Shown here: piece after piece, positions 18,833 to 33,428 of the stretch
Numbering within the stretch: the first letter of the stretch is position 1
How the letters are laid out: each line of letters opens with the position of its first letter
Assembly (NCBI RefSeq): GCF_009914755.1
Contig: NC_060927.1
Direction: 5' to 3' (one strand)
Source of the DNA: the human T2T-CHM13v2.0 reference genome, Homo sapiens
DNA: 64,000 bases
The notes under the pieces: model-generated
The model's database searches: none
Told to the model about the DNA's origin: nothing
The model's input: the letters and a program-made list of their open reading frames with translations, nothing else
Translations under genes and position numbers: made by a program

Positions 18833-19097
18833 CACATGCTCTCACACACACACTCTTAGACACTCACACATACACACTCACACTCACTCATACATACTCA
18901 TACACACACACTCATGTACTCAAAAACCACACACACACTTACACACACATATACACACATACACTCACACTCATACACACACTCACACATTCACACACAT
19001 ACACACAGACTCTCACACACAATCACACACATTCACACTCACACACACAAACACACATGCACATACACATTCACTCACACATTCACACACACTCATA
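18833..19097. repeat. Degenerate (CA)n low-complexity tract
   Basis: About 260 bp of CA/CACT repeats. Confidence 0.95.
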
Positions 19098-19707
19098 CAG
19101 CCCAGCAAGCAGCGGAGCAAGGGTGAGGACTCAGCTCCTGCCTCTAGAGCTCTCCCTAGGCTGCTACTCTGAGGACACAGAGCTAGGGAGAACCTACAGG
19201 TGACTGCCTTCCTTGCAGACAAGCCCTCATCTCACATGGCTCCTTTAGCTTTTATTCTCTCTGCCCAGAGCACACCCTCTGTCCAGCACTGTTTCCATAG
19301 GCATGGCTTTATCCTCAGAGAGGGCACCTCAGACCCAGCGGGATCTCCTGAGTGGCGTGTAGTGACATGGGATCCATGTCCCCAAATATCTCCCACACTC
19401 TTGGCCATAGTATCTGACTTTTCTTTGGAATTTATGCAAGGAAAACCTCAGGGACCAGATTTTTCAAAATACAGGTCCCGAAGGGAGGGAAAAGCACCTT
19501 ACATTAGTCATCTCACTGACGAGAACTATCCATTCAAGCTATTTTTTTATTCATTTCACAGTACATTGCAGACATTGTTAGATTTCACCCCTAAATGTTT
19601 AAAATGCTACAGTAATTTTTAGTTCAGTGATGACAATTCAATCATAACTTTTCTTTCTTTAAACAAAAAGGAAAAATGCAGATTTTTTTAAATAAAAACA
19701 AATCATG

Positions 19708-19918: not shown

Positions 19919-19990
19919 CATTTTCTGTCAAATATAATTGTTAGATGATAAATAGTATATACATAATTTTTAAAAAATGTTTTCTCTGAT

Positions 19991-20202
19991 GGGCACAGTG
20001 GCTCATGCCTATAATCCTAGTACTTTGGGAGGCTGAGGCAGGTGGATCACTGAGGTCAGGAGTTCGAGACCAGCCTAACCAATATGGTGAAACACCATCT
20101 CTACTAAAAATACAAAATTGGCCAGGTGTGGTGGTGCATGCCTGTAATCCCAGCTACTTGGGAGGCCGAGGCAGGAGAATTGCTTGAACCCAGGAGACAG
20201 AG
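19991..20202 (+). mobile_element. 5' part of an AluS split by the provirus
   Basis: Ends at ...gaacccaggagacagag; the Alu resumes at 28104 with ggaggctgcagtgagc. Confidence 0.92.
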
Positions 20203-20636
20203 TGTTAGAAACAAGTGCCTGGTGCCGCAAAGAAAAACAGCACGTAGGCAGAAAATTCCTCAGCAAGGCAAATTTCCTTCTGCAGGAGGATGCAGCTTGC
20301 ACCAGTCACGATCGCAAGAGCACACTGAGCAGGGTAGGGCAGGGGTTTTTATCCCTAATGCAGTTCCTAGCACTTCTGTGTCCTTTCCTCATTGGCTAAG
20401 GTTGGCCCTCCCAATCTAAGCTAATTCGATTGGCTAAGGTTTAAAATTGAATAGGGTCTATTAGGCGGGAAGGAAGAGGGACTGTCCCTTACTAGGTGGG
20501 AAGGCATATCTGGCAAAGGCGGGAAGGTTGTTTACCGAACAGGTAGCTAGGAGACAAGGAAGTATAAGGAAGTTGGTCTAAGAAACAAAGAACAGGGAAC
20601 TAAAGCTTTTCGAAGAAGAATTTATCATCTCTGACA
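20203..20636 (-). repeat. Proviral 3' LTR (434 bp)
   Basis: tgttagaaac...tctctgaca; preceded on the - strand by the polypurine tract aaaatcaagagggggaaat. Confidence 0.95.
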
Positions 20637-21977
20637 ATTTCCCCCTCTTGATTTTATAGTTTTTCCTCTTCAAAATGCCTTAGCATATCTAGGCTCTGTT
20701 GTTGTTCTTGGGTGTCAAGAAGGAAGAGTTTATCTGAATAAGGTGGGGGGGAACTAAGGGAGGTTTTGGTGAGCGCTGTTTCTATAAGTCTTTGCACTAA
20801 ACCACAAATACAGGGTATGATACAGCATCCTACAAGAATGAGCACACCTATAACGATTATAAGGGAGGTGAATATTGAGGTCATAATTCCTTTCCATTTC
20901 CCGAACCATTTCTCCATGAGGGTTGTAAAGGGGTCATCTATTCTAGAATTTTTAGCTAACTCATTTATTTGATAAGGAGGTAAGGCCTTGTAAGGCTTTT
21001 GTTATTGTTCCATCGGGGGCGGTGTTATTAGGAATAAAAGTACAACATTGGACTCCAATCGTGACACAAACTCCGCCTTTTTCAGCTAATATCACGTCAA
21101 GGGCTATTCTGTTTTTCCCAGGCTATTTGGCTGGTAAGGCCTAATTGTTCAACTGTTCCTTTAATTGCATCTCTAGTAAAATTAACAAAGTGTTGTTGAT
21201 TATAATAGATATAATTTATTCAAGCTACATTCTTGTTTACAGTTGACCACCAGAACAATATAAATTTGAAGCCTGCAGCTGTTTGATTTTGGGCTTTGAA
21301 TTCATCTGGTACCCCTCATGGTACTCCGATAGCATCTATATAAACATGAGGATCAAAGGATCCATGAGGGACGTGTCTCTTTTTACAATATTCTGTCTTC
21401 AGCTTTCTTGGTCGATGAAATGCCAAGGTGAGAGGGATAGCCAACTGAATTACAGCACAAGTGCTGCTCCAGGTACTTGGCAGAGTACCCAGCGATAGTC
21501 CCCCACAATATCACCACACATCTGCTCCGGAATGAACAAGGGCATACTGATTGGTAAGCTCTTGAAAAGGCTTGGTTTCACTGCACCCTGTTAGGTCTCC
21601 AAGGAATGCTAACTTCTCCCCCTGCCATGAAAGGCAAGAGGTGAAGTTAACATCAGGGGCTGCAGGCTGGATGGCCCTCAAGGGCTGACCCGCAGGGCTT
21701 TTGACTTCAGGGAACAGCAGTGGAAGAATCTTGCATGACTCATTACACCAGGCTGTGGGGTTCTGGAAGAGAGCTATCACACAGCTCATGCCTCGTTGGT
21801 CAGATGACCATCCAAGTGGGAAGGGGACAATTTGGGTTTCTGGCCTACCTGTCGCACAAGCCTAACAGTCGCTTTTATTTAGCTTGCGGATGGAATATTT
21901 AATCCCTTCCAACCAGGCATTTGGATCTTGATATCCTGTTTCAATAGCTAGAGTTTGCTTTAAATCTTTAACTTCTA

Positions 21978-22468
<491 letters not shown>

Positions 22469-22925
22469 TCAAGGAAGGGTAAGAACCTTGGGAAGCTGGG
22501 ATAGTAATGGAAATTTGTACAGGATTACACTGGTTATATTGGCAATTGGGAGGAGTACTCCCTTTAGTGAAACAAATGTATGGTTTCAGGAATATACAAC
22601 TATTCGTTGTGGCAGTCCATCCCTGGTTTTTGGTTGTCAATAGAACATTGGACCAACTGTGGCAGAGATGCTGAGGCTCTGCTTTAGGAGGACAAGTTTC
22701 CCAATTAACGGAATCTCCGTTAAAATCTTCCCAGACTAATTGATCCCGGTTAACAGATTTCCAGTCTGAGGAGAGCCAGGAAGGACAAAGATACTTTTCT
22801 GAAGTAAAGTTGTCTTTGACCCTGCAGATCTCCACAGGGTATAACAAGACAAGCATCGAAAGTGATAGTTTGAGGTGAGTTAGACTTAGTAACATTAATA
22901 ATAAGATGTGGGGTAGCTGGGGTAA

Positions 22926-23285
<360 letters not shown>

Positions 23286-23299
23286 GCTTTTCTCTTTAA

Positions 23300-25880
23300 C
23301 GTTACATTTTCGGGGGTAGGTACTTTGGAGAGGGGTACCCGGGTATGATGCGTCCATCCTCTCTCAACGGTCCGGACTGCTGTCTCAGTTGTGAGGAGCA
23401 CTAGGTATGGTCCTTCCCAAGTGGGTTCGAGCTTTCCCTCTTTCCAACTTCTGATAAGGATGTGATCTCCAGGCTGGTGTTGATGAACTGGTAATTCAAT
23501 GGGTGGAGTTTGTGCTAGGAGGCCTTGAGTCCTGAGGGAGGAAAGGGTAGAAGATAGACCTAACACATAGTTTCTAAGAAACTGATCTTTTGTTTCGAAT
23601 GTGGGAAGATCAGTAGTAGAATGTAGATAAGGCAATCTAAAAAGCATCTCATAAGGGGGTAGACCTATGTTTTTTCAGGGAGCAGTTCGGACTCTCAACA
23701 GGGCAATAGGCCTTTCGACTCTCCCTGATGAGGGTGGATGCACGGCATGTGGTACTCCCATTTTCTTTAGGTTGTTTGTTGGTTTTTCTGCGCACTCTGA
23801 AACGATCTGCAACTTGTCTAGCAAGGGTATAAATTCCTACGCATCCATAAACTCTGAGGACTGCATCACACATAGCTTGGGGGCCCCAGTGAGTTCCTTG
23901 ATGTAGCTGTGACAATACCTCTTGCATGAAGGGCTTAGACAGCATTTCCTTCTTGTCTGGTTGTACCCATCTTCCCTCGTGACTTTCTTTGGCTCCTATT
24001 TCTTTTAACTTTTCTTTTTCTCTGGGGGAGAAAACAGGGACTGTAGCTGGAGGGGGAAGATAAGGGGTTAGGTGGAAAATGGGTGCTGCTTGAGAAGAGG
24101 CAACATGTTTAGCCACTTGGTCAGCTAGATTATTCCCTCAGCTCTCAAAGGAAAGATTCTTCTAGTGACCTGGAACATGAACAACTGCTGTCTCTTCTGG
24201 CGGCTGTAAGTTCTCTAGTACTTGGATTATCAAGTCTCTATGGACTAAGTTTTGGCCTTTACTGTTAATAAGGCCTCGCTCTGCCCAAATTTTCCCAAAG
24301 GCGTGGACTACTCCAAAGGCATACGTGGAGTCAGTATAAATAGTTCCTTCCTGGTTTTGCAGAAATTTTAAGGCTTGATTTAGTGTAAACAACTCACATG
24401 TTTGCTCAGACCAGTCATTAGGTAGGGTGTCTCCGTCTACTGCTGAGTACCTGTTATGCCTTTTCCCTTTTATTACTTGAGAAGAACCATCTACAAAAAG
24501 GTGTCTTCCGGTTTGAAAGGGAGTTTATCTAAACATCTATGCCCAAGTTCTTCTGGTCTGGGGCATGGGTTTTTTTCTGCGTTTGAATTTCCTGTTAAGA
24601 AGGCAGCAGGGTTAAGTGAATCATCTGTAGTTCGGATTAAATCATCTTTTTCTAACAAGATAGCCTTGTATTTTAAAATTCTTGAGTCAGTAAGCAACCT
24701 TTCTGCCTTCTGATTTAGGATAGTTCTGTTCTGGTGAGGTGTGCTCACAATGGGGTTTCCTCCAAAAGTTATTTTTCTACTTTCTTCTGTTAGCAAAGTA
24801 GTTGCCGCTACAGATTGAATGCATTTGGACCATCCATGGGTTACTGGGTTAAGAATTTTTGACAGGAAGCCTACGGGTTGGGAGTGGCCTCCGTGCTTTT
24901 GGGTAAGTACTCCCAAGGCTACGCCCTTGTTTACATTGACGAAAAGATGGAATGGCTGCTTAGGGAGGGTAAAGCTAGGACAGGGGCAGTTACTAATAGA
25001 TGTTTTAACCTTTCTACCTTTTGGATTTCTGGTAATTGCCAAATGATGGGGTCTGGCTCGTCTTGTGTGAGCTTTTTGTATGAGAGTTCTGTTTCTAGGG
25101 CATAAGAGTCTATCCATAGACGGCAGTATCTGACTAATCCTCCTTCAATCCATTCAAGCCCAATTTTCCATTTGCCTTTGTAATTAAATGCCCTAAATAT
25201 TTTACTTCAGGTTCTACAAATTGGAGTTTGTTTTTCGAGGCCGTTAACCCTTCATCCCACAGAAAATGTAAGACATGGGTTGAGAAAGCTGCTACTTCTT
25301 TTCTATCATCTCCTGAAATTAGAAGATCATCCATGTACTGGAGGGGACATATGCACGAGGGCAGGGAAAATTTCTCTAGGACTTGTTCTAATATTTGACT
25401 AAGTAAATATGGAGACTCCGTAAACCCCCGGGGTAAGACTGTCCATCAGTATTGCTGTTTTCAACCGGAGTGAGGGTCTTTCCACTCAAAGGCAAGTAGG
25501 TCCTGGCTGCCCTCTGCTAATGGACAAGCCCAGAAGGCATCATTTAAATCCATTACTGTACTATCTGATTAATAGCTCTAAGGTCTTGCACTAACCAGTA
25601 TGACCTGTCTGGCTTCTTTAAAGGCAGTATTGGAGTGTTACAGGGAGACATACAGGATTTAAGAAGCCCATCATGGAGAAGACCTTCAATTACAGGTTTT
25701 AAATTTACCCTGGCTTCTAAAGGAATAGGGTATTGCTTTCTCTTTACTACTTCCCCAGGGGTTTTAAATTTAACATGAATCAGAGAAATCTGTAACTTTC
25801 CTTGATCCCATCTTTTGACCATACCTCGGGATAAATGTGTTCTTCGTCTGCGGTGGTGAGCAAGATTAGGGAGGGGAGGG
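23300..25880 (-). pseudogene. ERV pol remnant (RT, RNase H, truncated integrase)
   Basis: QYPIP...SPCNTPILP...LVQDLRAIN; QYMDDLL; IYTDS...VHVPGH; HQGTHWG; KLEPTWEGPYLVLLTT; many stops and frameshifts. Confidence 0.92.
25641..25695 (+). other. HRH1: Probable HRH1 alternative non-coding first exon (5' end approximate)
   Basis: Weak donor CAG|GTTTTA at 25695/25696; sequence matches my recollection of the 5' end of an HRH1 mRNA (not verified by alignment). Confidence 0.6.
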
Positions 25881-26233
25881 GAGGAATTTTCCGTGATTGA
25901 TTTGGAGGCCTAAGCCTAATTTTAGTATTAAATCACTTCCTAATAGATTTGTCCCTGCTTCTGGAATTAACAGAAATTTGCTGCTAGCTGATCAGTTTTC
26001 ATATTTCACTTTTGTCTCCTCTAAGATTTTTGCTCTAAATCCTTCTCCTTTTACTCCAGAGATAAAAAGTTTTTCTTGTGAACAAGTTACACTAGATGGA
26101 AGATAACAGACTGAGGAGTGAGCTGCTTCTGACTCGATTAAAAAGGTAATAAGCTTAGGTTTAGGTCCCACTTCTAAATTTACCAAGGGCTGTTGGTGGG
26201 ACTCAAGAGACAAAGATGGAGCCCCTGACCTCC
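25880..26233 (-). pseudogene. ERV protease remnant
   Basis: PLVNLEVG...ITFLIESEAAHS (degenerate LIDSGA active site)...LLIPEAGTNLLG-like segment. Confidence 0.8.
26060..26145 (+). other. HRH1: Probable HRH1 non-coding 5'UTR exon (86 nt)
   Basis: Acceptor ccttctccttttactccag| and donor AAG|GTAATA; intron to the coding-exon acceptor is 5784 nt, matching the ~5.8 kb 5'UTR intron I recall for HRH1. Confidence 0.8.
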
Positions 26234-27071
26234 CTAGTCTTCTTCAAAAGCTGTAAGTGGGATGACTTTTTCTTCTTTTTCCCATTTGGGACATTGTCTT
26301 TCAAAATGACCTATTTTTCCACATTTGAAACATTTGTTCTGTGATTTCTTAGTAATATCTCGCCAGCTATTGGTGACAAAGTGGAGCTTTAACATTCCTT
26401 GTCCGAGGGGGTCTTCTGATTCTAGGCCAGCGTATTTTTCTCATTTGCTCTTTAAGCCTTTCTAAAAATTCTGTCGGTCCCTCATCTTTTCCCTGTTTTA
26501 TATTAAAGGCCTTGGTAAGATTTTGGGTGCGGGGCACTAATTCTCAAATTCCTTTTATTACCATCTCCCTAAGGTCTCTCATATTTCCTTGATGGGCTAT
26601 ATTGTTGTTATCTCATTGAGGATCCTGGGCTGGGAATTATGTTCAGCCGCTGGAACGTTCTGACCGGGAGGATGTTCACGTTCCCGAATGGTCATAGCAG
26701 CCCTTTGTATCATGCTCCTTTCTTCTCCTGAGAATAAGATGTCTAAGATAGACATTAACTCGTCTAAAGTATATATCTGGGGTCCTAAAACTGATCGATC
26801 TGATCTGCCACTCCATAAGGGTCATCTAAGAGTGGTTTAAGCTCCTTTTTTAGGTTTAGGGGAAGGGTCTGTGGTGGCAGCTGCTTGGGGGAGAGGAAGG
26901 TTCTTCAGTCCAAACAAAACAGCAGTTTTTTATCATTTGCTGCTTTTTCTTGTGTTTGGTCCTTCCATTATCCTTCCAATATTCTAACGTTAGGCCTAGG
27001 GGACTATCAGAGGGTATATTATCATGATCATGATATTTCCTATCTTTTGTCTTACTTGCTGTATTTCCCAT
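26234..27071 (-). pseudogene. ERV gag remnant (internally deleted)
   Basis: MGNTASK myristoylation-type start; CCHC knuckle CFKCGKIGHFERQC at about 26292-26333; TAG stop at 26234-26236. Confidence 0.88.
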
Positions 27072-27629
27072 CCTGGAGAAAGAGTTTTTCCCTGAGTCCA
27101 TGGGGCTCAATCTCTCTTACTAGAGATTTCTTGCACCCTAGTGAGTCTGTGGGGCTCAACCTCTCCTACTAGAGATTTTTCACACTCTTCAGCTTTTGCT
27201 TTATCCTTCTCCATATGCTTCTCTTGCGGAAATTTTCAAGTCCCTCTTAGCATAGGCAGGTTGGTATAAACCCCACAACAGGCAAGCTGCCTTTAAGCCA
27301 TATGAGGTGACTACAGAACCAGATCCGGACTCTGCACTTGCTCTGCACTCAATTGTGTGTCTTACTCACACACTTTCAACCTCCAGGATGTCCTGACCAC
27401 CAAGGAAATACTTCACTGCCCCCAAGGTTTTTCTTACCTTGGTCTATGCACAGAGTTACCTGGTCGCCACAGTATCTGTCTGCCTTTTCTTCCCTCATTG
27501 CTAGAGTCCAGGTTTATTCATCACACCAGGTGGGTCTCGATCCCTTACCCTTGAGGCCACCGCAACAAAGCAGCGGGCTGCGTCTCCTCACGAGAAATGA
27601 TCTGAGACCCTCCCCGGAGGAGAATGGGA

Positions 27630-27647
27630 ATCCCAGATGAACCCCCA
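27630..27647 (-). promoter_or_regulatory. Primer-binding site, tRNA-Pro type
   Basis: TGGGGGTTCATCTGGGAT versus Pro PBS TGGGGGCTCGTCCGGGAT (15/18, two differences at CpGs), 4 nt after the 5' LTR. Confidence 0.85.
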
Positions 27648-27651
27648 AGTT

Positions 27652-28103
27652 TGTTAGAAACAAGTGCCTGGTGCCACAAAGAAAAACAGCACATAGGCAG
27701 AAAATTCCTCAGCAAGGCAAATTTACTTCTGCAGAAGGGTGCAGCTTGTGCTAGTCACAATCGCAAGAGCACACCAAGCAGGGTAGGGCAGGGGTTTTTA
27801 ATCCCTAATGCAGTTCCTAGCACTTCTGTGTCCTTTCCGCATTGGCTGGGGTTGGACTTCACAATCTAAGCTAATTCGATTGGCTAAGATTTAAAATTGA
27901 ATAGGGTCTATTAGGTGGGAAGGAAGAGGAACTATCCGTTACTAGGTGGGAAGGCATATCTGGACTTGTCTGGGCCTGGCGAAGGCAGGAAGGCTGTTTA
28001 CAGAACAGGTAGCTAGGAGACAAGGATGTACAAGGAAGTTGGTCTTAAGAAACAAAGAACAGAGAACTAAACCTTTTTGAAGAGGAATTTATCATCTCTG
28101 ACA
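27652..28103 (-). repeat. Proviral 5' LTR (452 bp)
   Basis: Direct repeat of 20203-20636 with about 18 extra nt; CCAAT boxes on the - strand. Confidence 0.95.
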
Positions 28104-28218
28104 GGAGGCTGCAGTGAGCTGAGATCACGCCATTGCACTCCAGCTTGGGCAATGAGAGTGAAACTCCGTCTCAAATTAAAATTAAAATTAAAAAATAAAA
28201 AATAACGTAAAATAAAAA
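28104..28218 (+). mobile_element. 3' part of the split AluS (Sp/Sq-like)
   Basis: ggaggctgcagtgagc...gggcaatgagagtgaaactcc plus A-rich tail. Confidence 0.9.
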
Positions 28219-28409
28219 ATGGTTTCTCTCCCCTCTATGTGCCAGACAATGAGGAAAAGAGAAAAAGGAGACACCTCTGGAGGCCAGGGAGCTGAGAGCC
28301 ACCTTGAGAATGCCAAGCTGGGGAAGTGTTTAGGGGAACTACTTCCTGCTTCCTTCCGAGCAAAACAGTAAAAAATAAAAATCCCTGAGACAATACTTCC
28401 TTAGCCTTA

Positions 28410-28856
28410 TGAACCCCGAAAATCTGAGATAGGTCTCAGTTAATTTGGAAAGTTTATTTTGCCAAGGTTGAGGACGCACACCCATGACACAGCAACAGGA
28501 GGTCCTGACGATGTGCCCAAAGTGGTCAGAGCACAGTTTGGTTTTATACATTCTAGGGAGACATGAGACATCAATCAATATATGCAAGATGAACATTCCT
28601 TAGGTCTGGGAAAGGCAGGACAACTGGAAGCCGGGAGGAGGCTTCCAGGTCTTAGGAAGATAAGAGACAGATGGTTGCATTCTTTTGAGTTTCTGATTAG
28701 CCTCTCCAAAAGAGGCAATCAGATATGCATTTATCTCAGTGAGCAGAGGTCTGACTTCGAACAGAATGGGAGGCGGGTTTGCCCTAAGCAGTTCCCAACT
28801 TGACTTTTCCCTTTACCTTAAGTGATTTTGGGGCCCCAAGTTATTTTCCTTTCACA
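28410..28856 (-). mobile_element. MER4-group (MER4A-like) solo LTR
   Basis: tgaaccccgaaaatctgagataggtctcagttaattt...ttttcctttcaca; minus ORF MYKTKLCSDH typical of this family. Confidence 0.8.
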
Positions 28857-29445
28857 GCCTACTTTCTTCCTTCCAGAAGTGACTGTGGACAATTCCACAG
28901 GGTTTGGACTTGATCAGGGCAGAAGGTGAAGCTGCAAGGTATTAGATGTGGGAATGGAGAAAAATACAGGCTGGAGCTGTGGGTTTGAGTGTTGTCCTCA
29001 TAGGAGGTGATGGCTGAGGGGTAGGTAAGTGAGAGGATGAGATCCCCGAGGCCGACAGCACAGAGTGACAGGAGCATAGGGCAGGACTTTGGGTCACCCA
29101 AGGAGACAGTGATGCTTTTGAAGAAGTCAGAGGAGGCCCCATCAGCAATCAGAGGATTGCTCTGATTGGCACCTCAGAGCTGGAGGACATCAAAAAATAC
29201 CGCTGTAAGAAAGAGACCTGGAAAAGTCTTTAGAGATTGTCTATCCCACCCTACCCATTTGACACATGAGAAGATGGAGGCCAAGAGATCACTGAGAAAA
29301 TAAATGGTAGAGCTTGGGCAAAATCAGTGCTGCCCAAAATGGTGTTTTTCCAACAAAGACATTTAAAAGGTTCCTTCCACAAGGATCAAACACCTTGGGG
29401 TTTTGATTTTTATCTTAAAAAATTATATAAATTTAGCCTTCTACA

Positions 29446-30903
<1,458 letters not shown>

Positions 30904-31109
30904 TACTAGCAAGGGTCTTGTTACATATTACTTGGCATGATTTATGTAATTTAAAAAAATTGTTTGTTTTTCAAATAGAAAAGTAAAATAACGAATATGC
31001 TTTTCCAATAACATAATCCCCTTCTCACTTGAGAATTTTCCTCTAAAAAGATATGCTAGATTTATTTCATGCTTTATGTGCCTCTGGTGTGTCCCCTTAT
31101 AACCTCCTC

Positions 31110-31660
31110 CATATCATTTAGGGATGGTCTCAGCTGCAAGTAAGAACTGCCACAACAGTGATGTAAGCCAAAAAAAAAAAAAAAAAAAAAAGCAAAGCCA
31201 AGCAAAACAAAGCCCATTTAATTATTTCCCATAATAATAAGTCTGGGAGAAGAAGATTCCAGAGTTGGCTCAGCAGCTTAGTGACAGCAAGGCCCTAGGC
31301 TGGCATTTTCTTGGCCTTCCCGATGGTCCCAAGATGACTCTCATGGCCTCAAACATCACTTCCTCACATCCTGTCAGGGAGAAAGAGGCAAGTGAGCAAC
31401 AACAATTTTTGTTGTTTTGATCATTTGTCAGAGAGGAAGAACGTTCCTAAAAACTCCGCCTCTGCTGTTTGACATCCTCATCCTATTCCTTGGCCATGGT
31501 GGTATCTCATGGTCACTCCTCTATCTGCCACTGTAAAGAGGAACTGGATTGCTATATTCTGCTTAGACACATGAGGATGCAGCCCACCTTCCCAGAACAT
31601 GTGCGGAATTAGATTTCTACAAACACATTTGTCTTGCTTCTGCCCAACTCTCTCACTAGA
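31110..31660. mobile_element. MLT1-type LTR fragment
   Basis: 'tggtcccaagatgactc', 'ctcatggtcactcct...ctgtaaagaggaactgg' motifs. Confidence 0.5.
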
Positions 31661-31909
31661 ATGCACATTCCATAGGGGCAAACATTTTTGTCTATTTTGT
31701 TCACAGCTATATTCTCAACACCTAGAAGAGTGACAGAAATTCAATAAATAGTTGTTAAGTGAGCAAATGAATGCATGAATAAGGAAAAGGGTACATGGCT
31801 ATTGAGTAGGTAACCAGCAGTGTTGATCACCCCCAACAGCATACAACTCCAGTCTGATGAACATCATGCTACTAAGTGGCCACTCATCACCCAAGTCTCT
31901 GACCTTACT

Positions 31910-31929
31910 TTTTCTCTCTTTTCTCCCAG
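31910..31929 (+). promoter_or_regulatory. HRH1: Splice acceptor of the HRH1 coding exon
   Basis: Polypyrimidine tract tttttctctcttttctcccAG| 35 nt upstream of the ATG. Confidence 0.9.
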
Positions 31930-31964
31930 GGAGTGAGCCATAACTGGCGGCTGCTCTTGCGCCA

Positions 31965-33428
31965 ATGAGCCTCCCCAATTCCTCCTGCCTCTTAGAAGAC
32001 AAGATGTGTGAGGGCAACAAGACCACTATGGCCAGCCCCCAGCTGATGCCCCTGGTGGTGGTCCTGAGCACTATCTGCTTGGTCACAGTAGGGCTCAACC
32101 TGCTGGTGCTGTATGCCGTACGGAGTGAGCGGAAGCTCCACACTGTGGGGAACCTGTACATCGTCAGCCTCTCGGTGGCGGACTTGATCGTGGGTGCCGT
32201 CGTCATGCCTATGAACATCCTCTACCTGCTCATGTCCAAGTGGTCACTGGGCCGTCCTCTCTGCCTCTTTTGGCTTTCCATGGACTATGTGGCCAGCACA
32301 GCGTCCATTTTCAGTGTCTTCATCCTGTGCATTGATCGCTACCGCTCTGTCCAGCAGCCCCTCAGGTACCTTAAGTATCGTACCAAGACCCGAGCCTCGG
32401 CCACCATTCTGGGGGCCTGGTTTCTCTCTTTTCTGTGGGTTATTCCCATTCTAGGCTGGAATCACTTCATGCAGCAGACCTCGGTGCGCCGAGAGGACAA
32501 GTGTGAGACAGACTTCTATGATGTCACCTGGTTCAAGGTCATGACTGCCATCATCAACTTCTACCTGCCCACCTTGCTCATGCTCTGGTTCTATGCCAAG
32601 ATCTACAAGGCCGTACGACAACACTGCCAGCACCGGGAGCTCATCAATAGGTCCCTCCCTTCCTTCTCAGAAATTAAGCTGAGGCCAGAGAACCCCAAGG
32701 GGGATGCCAAGAAACCAGGGAAGGAGTCTCCCTGGGAGGTTCTGAAAAGGAAGCCAAAAGATGCTGGTGGTGGATCTGTCTTGAAGTCACCATCCCAAAC
32801 CCCCAAGGAGATGAAATCCCCAGTTGTCTTCAGCCAAGAGGATGATAGAGAAGTAGACAAACTCTACTGCTTTCCACTTGATATTGTGCACATGCAGGCT
32901 GCGGCAGAGGGGAGTAGCAGGGACTATGTAGCCGTCAACCGGAGCCATGGCCAGCTCAAGACAGATGAGCAGGGCCTGAACACACATGGGGCCAGCGAGA
33001 TATCAGAGGATCAGATGTTAGGTGATAGCCAATCCTTCTCTCGAACGGACTCAGATACCACCACAGAGACAGCACCAGGCAAAGGCAAATTGAGGAGTGG
33101 GTCTAACACAGGCCTGGATTACATCAAGTTTACTTGGAAGAGGCTCCGCTCGCATTCAAGACAGTATGTATCTGGGTTGCACATGAACCGCGAAAGGAAG
33201 GCCGCCAAACAGTTGGGTTTTATCATGGCAGCCTTCATCCTCTGCTGGATCCCTTATTTCATCTTCTTCATGGTCATTGCCTTCTGCAAGAACTGTTGCA
33301 ATGAACATTTGCACATGTTCACCATCTGGCTGGGCTACATCAACTCCACACTGAACCCCCTCATCTACCCCTTGTGCAATGAGAACTTCAAGAAGACATT
33401 CAAGAGAATTCTGCATATTCGCTCCTAA
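31965..33428 (+). CDS. HRH1: Histamine H1 receptor, 487 aa class A GPCR, intronless CDS
   Basis: Seven hydrophobic segments; amine-binding Asp in TM3 (SMDYVAS); DRY; long ICL3; CWIPY; NPLIY; C-terminus KRILHIRS. Confidence 0.99.
   Translation: MSLPNSSCLLEDKMCEGNKTTMASPQLMPLVVVLSTICLVTVGLNLLVLYAVRSERKLHTVGNLYIVSLSVADLIVGAVVMPMNILYLLMSKWSLGRPLCLFWLSMDYVASTASIFSVFILCIDRYRSVQQPLRYLKYRTKTRASATILGAWFLSFLWVIPILGWNHFMQQTSVRREDKCETDFYDVTWFKVMTAIINFYLPTLLMLWFYAKIYKAVRQHCQHRELINRSLPSFSEIKLRPENPKGDAKKPGKESPWEVLKRKPKDAGGGSVLKSPSQTPKEMKSPVVFSQEDDREVDKLYCFPLDIVHMQAAAEGSSRDYVAVNRSHGQLKTDEQGLNTHGASEISEDQMLGDSQSFSRTDSDTTTETAPGKGKLRSGSNTGLDYIKFTWKRLRSHSRQYVSGLHMNRERKAAKQLGFIMAAFILCWIPYFIFFMVIAFCKNCCNEHLHMFTIWLGYINSTLNPLIYPLCNENFKKTFKRILHIRS

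What the first reader, a model, noticed from the sequence alone, without database searches (positions are those of the whole stretch)
24600..31964. HRH1 proximal 5'UTR exons and promoter appear to be exapted from the antisense strand of a provirus's protease/RT coding sequence
Seen in sequence: an 86-nt segment (26060-26145) bounded by a good acceptor and an AAG|GTAATA donor lies exactly antisense to the protease active-site codons. A donor at 25695 lies antisense to the RT N-terminus. Both are internal viral sequence, 1.5 kb or more from either LTR. Recalled knowledge (unverified): an HRH1 mRNA begins CAGGGAGACATACAGG...TTACAG|AGATAAAAAG...AAAAG|GGAGTGAGCC, and a ~5.8 kb 5'UTR intron was described; the intron here is 5784 nt. 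Inference: this HRH1 promoter is non-LTR retroviral DNA and therefore primate-restricted. A perfect AP-1 site (TGAGTCA, 24683-24689) lies in pol about 950 bp upstream. ERV exaptation usually involves LTRs, so an internal antisense promoter would be unusual.
Basis: partly seen in the sequence, partly recalled or inferred. Interest (0 to 1): 0.8.

Follow-up and report, generated by a model that had tools for sequence, protein, structure and literature searches.

The report
HRH1 promoter inside an old provirus

Summary
A decayed gamma-like provirus lies on the minus strand at 20203-28103. It has 434/452-nt LTRs (92.6% identical), a polypurine tract, a gag zinc knuckle and protease, RT, RNase H, integrase and env remnants. 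It inserted into an Alu with a 4-bp duplication.

HRH1 exon 25626-25695 is antisense to the RT N-terminus. Exon 26060-26145 is antisense to the degenerate protease active site. Both are at least 1.5 kb from an LTR, and the last 5'UTR intron is 5784 nt.

These are the published exons H and I of the H/I/K variant. The 22-nt Ku86-binding "B1" oligo of Mizuguchi 2012 maps exactly to 25575-25596, which puts +1 at about 25640. The whole 2.1-kb reporter promoter, including the AP-1/Ets-1 region A, is therefore pol-antisense DNA.

Comparison with up to 29 paralogous copies shows that both donor GTs and B1 are shared across the family. The TATA-like TTTAAAG, the CA at the start site and a 73-bp deletion are private to this copy. 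The acceptor AG is absent from its five closest relatives.

The perfect TGAGTCA occurs at chance frequency and lies outside the functional region A. The SPAM1 promoter (2005) is a direct precedent, so this is a new member of a known kind. I found no paper stating the ERV origin for HRH1.

The parts
19985..20202 (+). 5' part of the Alu that the provirus split; its last 4 nt, 20199-20202 (AGAG), form one copy of the target-site duplication
   Evidence: D2, D5: 20106-20202 aligns in register with Alu 22171-22267
20203..20636 (-). 3' LTR (434 nt, TG...CA)
   Evidence: 402 of 434 aligned bases match the 5' LTR
20637..20650 (-). Polypurine tract directly upstream of the 3' LTR
   Evidence: purine run ...aagagggggaaat before TGTCAG
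20654..21001 (-). env remnant: C-terminal transmembrane-subunit ORF with a hydrophobic anchor
   Evidence: ORF text; no Pfam hit, so assigned by position and by reading the sequence only
22038..22383 (+). Alu inserted into the provirus in the env region
   Evidence: D2, D5, D7; hub repeat mask
22921..23291 (.). Second Alu-like insertion inside the provirus, at the env/integrase border
   Evidence: Hub repeat mask; (D10); Alu-type ORF text
23258..24137 (-). Integrase remnants
   Evidence: MLVIN_C 3.6e-11; zf-H2C2 0.0023 (below the curated cutoff)
24162..24524 (-). RNase H remnant
   Evidence: RNase_H 5.6e-12
24491..25909 (-). Reverse transcriptase remnants in several frames (YMDD present)
   Evidence: RVT_1 4.4e-15, RT_RNaseH 5.1e-10; MMLV RT 1.5e-14
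24503..24680 (+). Published promoter region A (-1137/-960). Holds an Ets-1 site (about 24582-24592) and AP-1 sites (about 24615-24623 and 24635-24645). Placed by arithmetic from the B1 anchor.
   Evidence: The motif types at the predicted places fit (TGAATCA; TTTCC).
24683..24689 (+). Perfect TGAGTCA at -957/-951, just outside region A
   Evidence: Identical in 10 of 18 paralogs that cover it.
25557..25560 (.). Junction of a 73-bp deletion private to this copy (-83/-80), with 4 nt of microhomology
   Evidence: all 19 paralogs with both flanks carry extra sequence, exactly 73 nt in 15 of them
25575..25596 (+). Published Ku86/Ku70/PARP-1-binding element B1 (-65/-44), antisense to the RT codons WLVQDLRA
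   Evidence: (exact unique match)
25617..25623 (+). TATA-like TTTAAAG, -23/-17 from +1=25640. A25621 is private to this copy.
   Evidence: C in 28 and T in 1 of 29 paralogs. Its function is my inference.
25626..25695 (+). HRH1 exon H, a first exon. The RefSeq 5' end is 25626; the published +1 is about 25640/25641.
   Evidence: Hub annotation
26060..26145 (+). HRH1 exon I (86 nt)
   Evidence: Hub annotation
25992..26243 (-). Protease remnant with a degenerate active site (ESE in place of the DTG of XMRV protease)
   Evidence: best PDB match XMRV protease, E=0.47; position between NC and RT
26234..26440 (-). gag nucleocapsid zinc knuckle
   Evidence: zf-CCHC 4.1e-7
26856..27116 (-). Start of gag (MGNTAS... 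about 27071)
   Evidence: no domain hit
27630..27647 (-). Primer-binding-site-like 18-mer starting TGG, 4 nt after the 5' LTR
   Evidence: tRNA type not tested; it looks proline-type from recall.
27652..28103 (-). 5' LTR (452 nt). It lies in the HRH1 I-K intron and points away from exon K.
28104..28225 (+). 3' part of the split Alu with its A-rich tail; 28104-28107 (GGAG) is the second copy of the target-site duplication
   Evidence: D12: 28105-28149 aligns in register with 22265-22309
31930..31964 (+). 5'UTR part of coding exon K. The acceptor is ...TTTTCTCCCAG|GGA and the CDS starts at 31965. This is outside the provirus.
   Evidence: Hub annotation

Best explanation
About 17-30 million years ago a gammaretrovirus-like ERV integrated in antisense orientation about 4 kb upstream of the HRH1 coding exon, into an Alu. 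Its sense strand is A-rich and it has a Pro-like primer site.

The T-rich antisense strand of its pro-pol region already carried two GT donors, the sequence now called B1 and several AP-1-like heptamers. A few changes are seen in this copy and in few or none of its relatives: C>A making TTTAAAG, T>C making CA at the start site, T>C at donor H position -3, T>A making the exon I acceptor AG, and a 73-bp deletion.

RNA polymerase II now starts at about 25626-25641 on the plus strand. The transcript splices H > I > K, giving an HRH1 mRNA with a 191-nt 5'UTR of which 156 nt are retroviral.

In HeLa cells this promoter responds to histamine and PMA. The response runs through Ets-1 and AP-1 at region A (antisense to the RT-connection/RNase H coding DNA) and through release of Ku86 from B1 (antisense to the RT codons LVQDLR).

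Shown here: the anatomy, the mapping of the published elements and the comparison with paralogs. Shown in print: promoter activity, factor binding and H/I/K expression. Inferred: the order and timing of the mutations, the role of TTTAAAG and any benefit to the host.
For: - **Provirus.** LTR pair, TG..CA ends, polypurine tract and PBS-like 18-mer. Domain order is zf-CCHC, protease-like, RVT_1, RT_RNaseH, RNase_H, MLVIN_C; 6 of 14 ORF pieces gave retroviral Pfam hits. PDB matches to MMLV RT (1.5e-14) and XMRV protease (0.47).
- **Integration site.** An Alu is split with a 4-bp overlap of register (D5/D12).
- **TSS inside pol.** No AG precedes 25626. The B1 oligo matches 25575-25596 uniquely, giving +1 at about 25640. 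ChIP primers map to 25472-25487 and 25709-25730.
- **Published function.** p2029 and its deletions, EMSA, ChIP and siRNA (Results part 1 of 2; Methods). This is the promoter of the H/I/K variant, which is expressed in HeLa (passages).
- **Paralogs.** 29 loci and 29, partly the same places. Donor H G/T are shared by 28/29 and 29/29, and donor I GT by 25/29. B1 is identical in 4 and one mismatch off in 8 of the 17 close copies. A25621 is in 0/29, C25641 in 1/29 and C25693 in 4/29. The acceptor AG is in 6/29 and in 0 of the 5 closest. The 73-bp deletion is in 0/19.
- **Private substitutions.** They affect 15 of 740 positions, and 3 fall among 32 signal positions (P=0.023).
Against: - H/I/K is not the main transcript. 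A/K, B/K and F/K are described as the common variants, and H/I/K was not detected in U-373 MG. In airway smooth muscle, 85% of transcripts join a far-upstream exon to the coding exon. RefSeq Select uses the far-upstream exon (hub).
- TTTAAAG lies only 17-23 nt from +1=25640, and 3-9 nt from the RefSeq 5' end, so it is too close for a canonical TATA box.
- The signal positions in the P=0.023 test were chosen after I had seen the table, so the value is only indicative.
- The acceptor AG also occurs in 6 of 29 related copies. It sits at a wobble position of a Ser codon, so it may predate integration.
- Deleting -221 to -65 did not change reporter activity, so the 73-bp deletion junction is probably neutral.
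- Region A sites were placed by arithmetic. The paper's ChIP forward primer, labelled -221, starts at -168 on my scale, so its numbering is not fully linear.
- Rats, which should lack this provirus, also raise H1R mRNA after histamine. The promoter is therefore not needed for that response in general.
- No reads, CAGE data or orthologous genomes were available here.
Confidence: 0.85

Rival explanations
1. The origin is the same, but there is no organismal function. On this view H/I/K is opportunistic transcription from a derepressed ERV fragment, seen mainly in transformed or hypomethylated cells such as HeLa, and contributes little receptor because of low abundance and two upstream ORFs.
For: - H/I/K is a minority variant and is absent from U-373 MG.
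- 85% of airway smooth-muscle transcripts use a distant exon.
- The ERV-derived UTR holds two uORFs of 14 and 18 codons; the first sits in an A(-3)/G(+4) context.
- An HRH1 promoter is reported hypomethylated in gastric cancer cells of 10 of 14 patients, though which promoter is not stated (passages).
- All functional work I read was done in HeLa.
Against: - The TSS was mapped and the variant found by two other groups, cited as De Backer 1998 and Swan 2006. I could read neither paper.
- RefSeq keeps the exons.
- The promoter is specifically inducible, and endogenous Ku86 occupies it by ChIP.
- Three private substitutions fall on signal positions, although that test is post hoc.
Confidence: 0.3
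2. The promoter is a conventional LTR promoter, or an LTR acting bidirectionally, and the internal exons are only spliced in.
For: LTRs are the usual ERV promoters (Discussion of Dunn & Mager). The 5' LTR carries CCAAT and TATA-like motifs (alignment).
Against: - Both LTRs are on the opposite strand. The 5' LTR (27652-28103) lies downstream of exons H and I, inside the I-K intron. The 3' LTR is 4990 nt upstream of exon H.
- Exon H is not preceded by an acceptor.
- Reporter fragments reaching at most -2029 (about 23611), with no LTR, are active, and 65 nt upstream of +1 suffice.
Confidence: 0.02
3. The exons are older host sequence, and the likeness to retroviral genes is coincidental or is a host-derived insert in the virus.
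For: Pfam found nothing in the two ORF pieces directly opposite the exons (proteins 10 and 11).
Against: - The same stretch (25557-26300) aligns at 83-91% to 17 other loci in the genome and at 72-79% to 12 more, collinear with pol on both sides.
- The MMLV RT match is 1.5e-14.
- The whole unit is bounded by LTRs and a target-site duplication inside an Alu.
Confidence: 0.01

Closest known systems
SPAM1/PH-20 promoters inside an antisense ERV1 (MER34) pol fragment (Dunn & Mager 2005, PMC1079825; abstract, sections 5 and 10 read)
   Same: - The host-gene TSS lies in retroviral pol-coding DNA, not in an LTR.
- The ERV is antisense to the gene.
- Only the 5'UTR is affected.
[quoted passage not shown]
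- The authors proposed the same scenario: chance near-sites on the antisense strand, improved by substitution.
   Different: - The SPAM1 ERV predates the primate-rodent split and is a small fragment; the HRH1 ERV is a near-full-length provirus with both LTRs, dated here to about 17-30 My.
- SPAM1's is the main, testis-specific promoter; HRH1's is a minor inducible alternative one.
- In HRH1 a second exon comes from the protease region.
- In HRH1, close paralogs allow the derived bases to be pointed out.
L1 antisense-promoter chimeric transcripts such as L1-MET (passages)
   Same: An internal, antisense promoter of a retroelement drives a spliced transcript into downstream host exons.
   Different: The L1 antisense promoter is a built-in feature of the element, shared by many copies. 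In HRH1 the start-site context is private to one copy.
LTR-derived alternative promoters of human genes (passages; listing)
   Same: ERV DNA supplies a tissue-restricted alternative first exon.
   Different: LTRs bring a ready-made promoter. Here the LTRs are not involved.
L2-HRH1 (NM_001098211), another TE-containing HRH1 5' variant (Kiyose 2022, PMC9380957; two passages read)
   Same: Same gene, with a TE-derived 5' untranslated exon and an unchanged protein.
   Different: A different element (L2), a different and distant exon, and no claim about exons H/I or an ERV.

Membership tests
Class I (gamma-like) endogenous provirus | Two LTRs in direct orientation with TG...CA ends | tested here: met
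   452 and 434 nt, 402/434 identical, three gap events
Class I (gamma-like) endogenous provirus | Short target-site duplication (4 bp for gammaretroviruses, from established knowledge) | tested here: met
   The two halves of the split Alu overlap by 4 nt of register (D5, D12). The copies read CTCC and CTCT in provirus orientation, 3 of 4 alike.
Class I (gamma-like) endogenous provirus | gag-pro-pol-env order with matching domains | tested here: met
   (zf-CCHC, RVT_1, RT_RNaseH, RNase_H, MLVIN_C above cutoffs). env is assigned only by position. All genes are broken by stops, frameshifts, two Alu insertions and a 73-bp deletion.
Class I (gamma-like) endogenous provirus | Primer-binding site after the 5' LTR and polypurine tract before the 3' LTR | tested here: inconclusive
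   An 18-mer starting TGG lies 4 nt after the LTR, and a purine run precedes the 3' LTR. The tRNA type was not tested; 'proline-like' is recall.
HERVIPADP supergroup (HERVIP / HERVADP of Vargiu 2016) | A content of the sense strand above 31% | tested here: met
   31.1% overall and 31.9% without the Alu inserts, against the statement in Vargiu 2016 (passage)
HERVIPADP supergroup (HERVIP / HERVADP of Vargiu 2016) | LTR divergence 10-19% reported for the group | tested here: not met
   7.4% raw, K2P 0.0785. I therefore do not file it there and leave the family name open.
HERVIPADP supergroup (HERVIP / HERVADP of Vargiu 2016) | Match to the Repbase/Dfam models (HERVIP10F/LTR10F or HERVP71A/LTR71) | not testable with these tools
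   No repeat library is held. The paper's locus table is an .xls file that could not be read.
TE-derived alternative promoter of a host gene | The transcription start lies inside the element | tested here: met
   The RefSeq exon starts at 25626 after GC, not AG. The published +1 is about 25640 by the B1 anchor. Both lie inside 20637-27651.
TE-derived alternative promoter of a host gene | The chimeric transcript splices to the host coding exon | tested here: met
   Hub annotation, GT-AG sites at all three junctions and RT-PCR of H/I/K in HeLa reported. No reads were examined here.
TE-derived alternative promoter of a host gene | The element's DNA drives a reporter | tested here: met
   Published constructs p2029 to p65, mapped here to about 23611-25640, all of it internal ERV sequence. 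The experiments are theirs; the mapping is mine.
Exaptation in the strict (adaptive) sense | Purifying selection or loss-of-function phenotype | not testable with these tools
   No orthologous primate sequences or variation data are held.
ERV pol-antisense promoter (SPAM1 type) | TSS and at least one bound factor site lie within pol-derived, antisense DNA | tested here: met
   B1 is antisense to WLVQDLRA of RT. Region A is antisense to the RT-connection/RNase H region.
LTR-driven promoter | TSS within an LTR | tested here: not met
   The nearest LTR edge is 1507 nt from exon I and 1957 nt from exon H, on the other strand.

The most novel reading that the evidence does not exclude
A promoter was born de novo from antisense reverse-transcriptase-coding DNA in the catarrhine lineage. 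It was completed by a handful of substitutions private to this copy: a TATA-like heptamer, a CA start and a splice acceptor. It now supplies the PKC-delta/ERK-responsive, AP-1/Ets-1/Ku86-controlled HRH1 isoform of human peripheral cells.

If so, the cis-elements dissected for over a decade as 'the' H1R promoter, and used to screen anti-allergic compounds, have no sequence counterpart in the rat and guinea-pig models used alongside them.
Probability: 0.3. Interest if true: 0.6.

Novelty: new member of a known kind. Interest (0 to 1): 0.45.

Why it matters
1. **A second case of promoter birth from viral coding sequence.** Unlike SPAM1, this one comes with close paralogs. Those show which signals were already latent in the family's antisense strand (both donors, B1, several AP-1-like heptamers) and which are private to the locus.

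2. **A consequence for allergy research.** The HRH1 promoter characterised biochemically (AP-1, Ets-1, Ku86/PARP-1) is very probably primate-specific DNA. The papers I read do not mention this (0 hits for retrovir/LTR/transpos in PMC3512088), and they pair the human promoter data with rat experiments. Rodent up-regulation of H1R must use other cis-elements.

3. **A testable translational effect.** The ERV-derived 5'UTR adds two upstream ORFs. These could lower translation of this isoform.

None of this changes the receptor protein, and the isoform is a minor one.

Tried and rejected
- **LTR as the promoter.** Rejected on position, strand and the published minimal constructs.
- **The perfect TGAGTCA as a notable feature.** It occurs at chance frequency, is identical in 10 of 18 paralogs and lies outside functional region A.
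- **Pfam on the two ORF pieces opposite the exons.** No hits. I replaced this with PDB phmmer.
- **Naming the ERV family.** The locus tables of Vargiu 2016 are .xls files and unreadable. A search of the other four supplement files for four coordinate prefixes, which I estimated from recalled hg19 gene coordinates, found nothing, and one file timed out. The family name is left open.
- **tRNA type of the primer site.** Not tested.
- **De Backer 1998.** Not held. Swan 2006 was not found in the library. Both are known to me only through citations.
- **Enrichment test of private substitutions.** The signal positions were defined, so I treat P=0.023 as a hint only.
- **The 73-bp deletion as the event that created the promoter.** Not supported, because removing -221 to -65 left reporter activity unchanged.
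- **Search for a printed statement of the ERV origin.** Six full-text searches: 5 papers; 14; 21; 2; 13; 10. Judged by title and abstract start, none was relevant, and the two that I opened did not mention it. Supplements and subscription journals were not covered.

Full report
**What is there.**
Between 20203 and 28103 the minus strand carries a near-full-length, thoroughly decayed provirus.
- **LTRs.** Direct repeats at 20203-20636 and 27652-28103 (families D3, D6, D8, D9) align as LTRs of 434 and 452 nt. They share 402 of 434 aligned bases (92.6%), with 24 transitions, 8 transversions and three gap events; K2P is 0.0785. Both start TGTCAG and end AACA.
- **Flanking signals.** A purine run precedes the 3' LTR. 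An 18-mer starting TGG follows the 5' LTR after 4 nt.
- **Coding remnants.** Of 14 minus-strand ORF pieces scanned against Pfam, 5 gave retroviral domains above the curated cutoffs: zf-CCHC 4e-7, RVT_1 4e-15, RT_RNaseH 5e-10, RNase_H 6e-12 and MLVIN_C 4e-11. One gave zf-H2C2 below its cutoff, one gave a sub-cutoff Med1 hit that I regard as spurious, and 7 gave nothing. The domains lie in the order gag-pro-pol.
- **Insertion site.** The flanks are the two halves of one Alu. 20106-20202 and 28105-28149 align in register to another Alu in the window at 22171-22267 and 22265-22309 (D5 and D12). Four Alu positions are therefore present twice, as CTCC/CTCT in provirus orientation. A 4-bp duplication is what gammaretroviruses make (established knowledge).
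- **Later damage.** Two later Alu insertions (22038-22383 and 22921-23291) and many stops and frameshifts break env, integrase and the rest (hub mask).

All parts check out.
- **Exon I** (26060-26145, 86 nt) has acceptor ...TTTTACTCCAG|AGA and donor AAG|GTAATA. It is antisense to TFLIESEAAHSSV...FIS of ORF 25992-26243(-). The best PDB match of that ORF is the XMRV protease, with LIESEAAHS opposite LVDTGAQHS. At E=0.47 this is weak alone, but it sits where a protease belongs.
- **Exon H** (25626-25695, 70 nt) ends at donor CAG|GTTTTA. It is antisense to PVIEGLLHDGLLKSCMSPCNTPIL, part of a stretch that matches the N-terminus of MMLV RT at 1.5e-14.
- **Distances.** The exons are 1507 nt or more from either LTR. 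The I-K intron is 5784 nt.
- **First exon.** Exon H follows GC, not AG, so it is a first exon.

**It is a known promoter.**
The affinity oligonucleotide for 'region B1 (-65/-44)' in Mizuguchi et al. 2012 (PMC3512088; I read the outline, Results part 1 of 2, Methods, figure legends and two term searches) matches the window once, at 25575-25596.
- **Reporter fragment.** Their 2.1-kb fragment p2029 then spans from about 23611, entirely inside the ERV's integrase-RNase H-RT region.
- **Region A.** Region A (-1137/-960) falls at 24503-24680. At the predicted places of the EMSA-proven sites I find TGAATCA (AP-1a), TTAAATCA (AP-1b) and GAATTTCC (the 'NF-kB-like' site that binds Ets-1).
- **B1.** This element binds Ku86/Ku70/PARP-1, and its release activates transcription. 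It is the antisense of the RT codons W-L-V-Q-D-L-R-A.
- **Identity of the variant.** Passages of Mizuguchi et al. 2021 (PMC8929123) identify this as the promoter of the 'H/I/K' splice variant of Swan et al. 2006. They report H/I/K in HeLa but not in U-373 MG cells, and they name A/K, B/K and F/K as the common variants.
- **Abundance elsewhere.** A 2007 paper from the Swan group (PMC2117012, passages) says 85% of airway smooth-muscle transcripts join one distant exon to the coding exon.
- **Caveat on numbering.** The 2012 paper's ChIP forward primer, described as amplifying -221/-44, starts at 25472, which is -168 on my scale. The reverse primer is at 25709-25730. The paper's numbering is therefore not strictly linear, and my placement of region A rests on arithmetic plus motif type.

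**The AP-1 site.**
TGAGTCA at 24683-24689 is real. The window holds 11 such heptamers against 12.6 +/- 3.4 expected. This one lies at -957/-951, inside construct p960, which had lost much of the PMA response. It is identical in 10 of the 18 paralogs that cover it. It is a family feature rather than a local one, and it is not the site shown to matter.

**What the paralogs add.**
Searching the window's own genome with 25400-26250 gave 60 matches (536 candidates, 40 scored) and 29 loci besides the window itself. Searching with 25960-26260 gave 40 matches and 29 loci, partly the same places. Seventeen loci are 83-91% identical and the rest 72-79%.

Shared with the family:

| Feature | Paralogs sharing the HRH1 state |
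|---|---|
| Donor H G / T | 28/29 and 29/29 |
| Donor I GT | 25/29 |
| B1 element | identical in 4, one mismatch in 8, of 17 close copies |

Private or nearly private to the HRH1 copy:

| Feature | Paralog states |
|---|---|
| A25621 (turns TTTACAG into TTTAAAG) | C in 28, T in 1 of 29 |
| C25641 (makes CA at the mapped start) | T in 28 of 29 |
| C25693 (donor H position -3) | T in 23, G in 2, C in 4 of 29 |
| 73-bp deletion at 25557-25560 | all 19 paralogs with both flanks have extra sequence; exactly 73 nt in 15 |
| Acceptor AG of exon I | AG in 6 of 29, in 0 of the 5 closest; TG in 17, GG in 3, CG in 2, CA in 1 |

- On the viral strand, A26058 is the wobble base of a Ser codon. That explains why the position varies between copies.
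- A25621 and C25641 change conserved RT residues: the PLK here lies where MMLV RT has PVK in the alignment, and the Cys lies in SPCNTP. This fits a change made after coding constraint was lost, but does not prove it.
- With a strict definition, 15 of 740 positions are private substitutions and 3 of them fall in 32 'signal' positions (hypergeometric P=0.023). I chose those positions after seeing the table, so this is only a hint.
- The deletion junction lies in -221/-65, which is dispensable in reporters.

**Age and family.**
K2P 0.0785 gives 17-30 My at 2.3-1.3e-9 per site per year (the rates are recalled). The rule of thumb in Vargiu 2016 (percent divergence x 2.5; passage) gives about 18-20 My. 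Together with the Alu target (Alus are primate-specific, established knowledge), this makes exons H and I catarrhine- or hominoid-restricted by inference. I could not look at other species.

The sense strand is 31-32% A. Vargiu 2016 reports that level for HERVIP, HERVADP and a few other groups. The primer site looks proline-type from recall. However, the group's reported LTR divergence (10-19%) is higher than this copy's, and no repeat library was available. I leave the family name open.

**Mechanism, and how sure.**
- **Shown here:** the provirus, the antisense placement of the exons, and the exact mapping of published cis-elements into pol.
- **Shown in print:** promoter activity, factor binding and expression of the spliced variant.
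- **Inferred:** a T-rich antisense strand with latent donors and factor-like sites needed only a few substitutions to become a start site plus two exons. TTTAAAG may help position initiation, though its spacing (-23/-17) is short. The two upstream ORFs of 14 and 18 codons in the ERV-derived leader may damp translation.
- **Not shown:** whether the host benefits. Rats also up-regulate H1R after histamine, so the response does not depend on this DNA in general.

**Comparison and novelty.**
Dunn & Mager 2005 described exactly this kind of event for SPAM1: a TSS in an antisense ERV1 pol fragment. They called it contrary to all earlier examples, and they proposed the same 'near-sites improved by substitution' scenario. 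HRH1 is therefore a further member of a known, rare kind.

Another HRH1 5' variant containing an L2 element is in print. Six full-text searches found no paper linking HRH1 exons H/I or this promoter to an ERV. The 2012 promoter paper contains none of the words retrovir, LTR or transpos. Supplementary tables of genome-wide TE-promoter catalogues, and the two original gene-structure papers, could not be read. The overlap would also be plain in any browser with a repeat track. The claim of being unpublished is therefore weak.

Noticed in passing
window 25673-25675 and 26096-26098: The ERV-derived leader carries two upstream ORFs. One has 14 codons, starts in exon H in an A(-3)/G(+4) context and ends in exon I. 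The other has 18 codons, starts in exon I and ends in exon K 28 nt before the HRH1 ATG. The first ATG is present in 9 of 29 paralogs and the second in 14 of 18.
   Followed up: partly
window 27093-27188: A tandem duplication of about 47-49 nt (83% alike) lies in the proviral leader just upstream of the gag start (D11).
   Followed up: no
L008-L012, L014, L015, L017, L022-L024: In eleven of the 17 close paralogs, homology to the window stops at about 26015-26042, inside the protease region. This suggests a subfamily with a deleted or replaced pro-gag segment.
   Followed up: no
G000:C15 80.24-82.98 Mb (L028-L030 and two further places): Five near-identical copies of a related ERV (73% identical to the query) sit within 2.8 Mb of contig 15 in both orientations. 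They look like part of a segmental duplication.
   Followed up: no
window 27652-28103: The 5' LTR lies inside the HRH1 I-K intron and points toward exons I and H. Any residual LTR activity would make RNA antisense to the H/I/K 5' end.
   Followed up: no
window 25472-25487: The ChIP forward primer of PMC3512088, described as amplifying -221/-44, starts at -168 relative to the +1 implied by that paper's own B1 oligo. Published promoter coordinates should be used with a tolerance of about 50 nt.
   Followed up: yes
window 19001-19109: An imperfect CA-rich microsatellite lies just upstream of the split Alu (D1).
   Followed up: no
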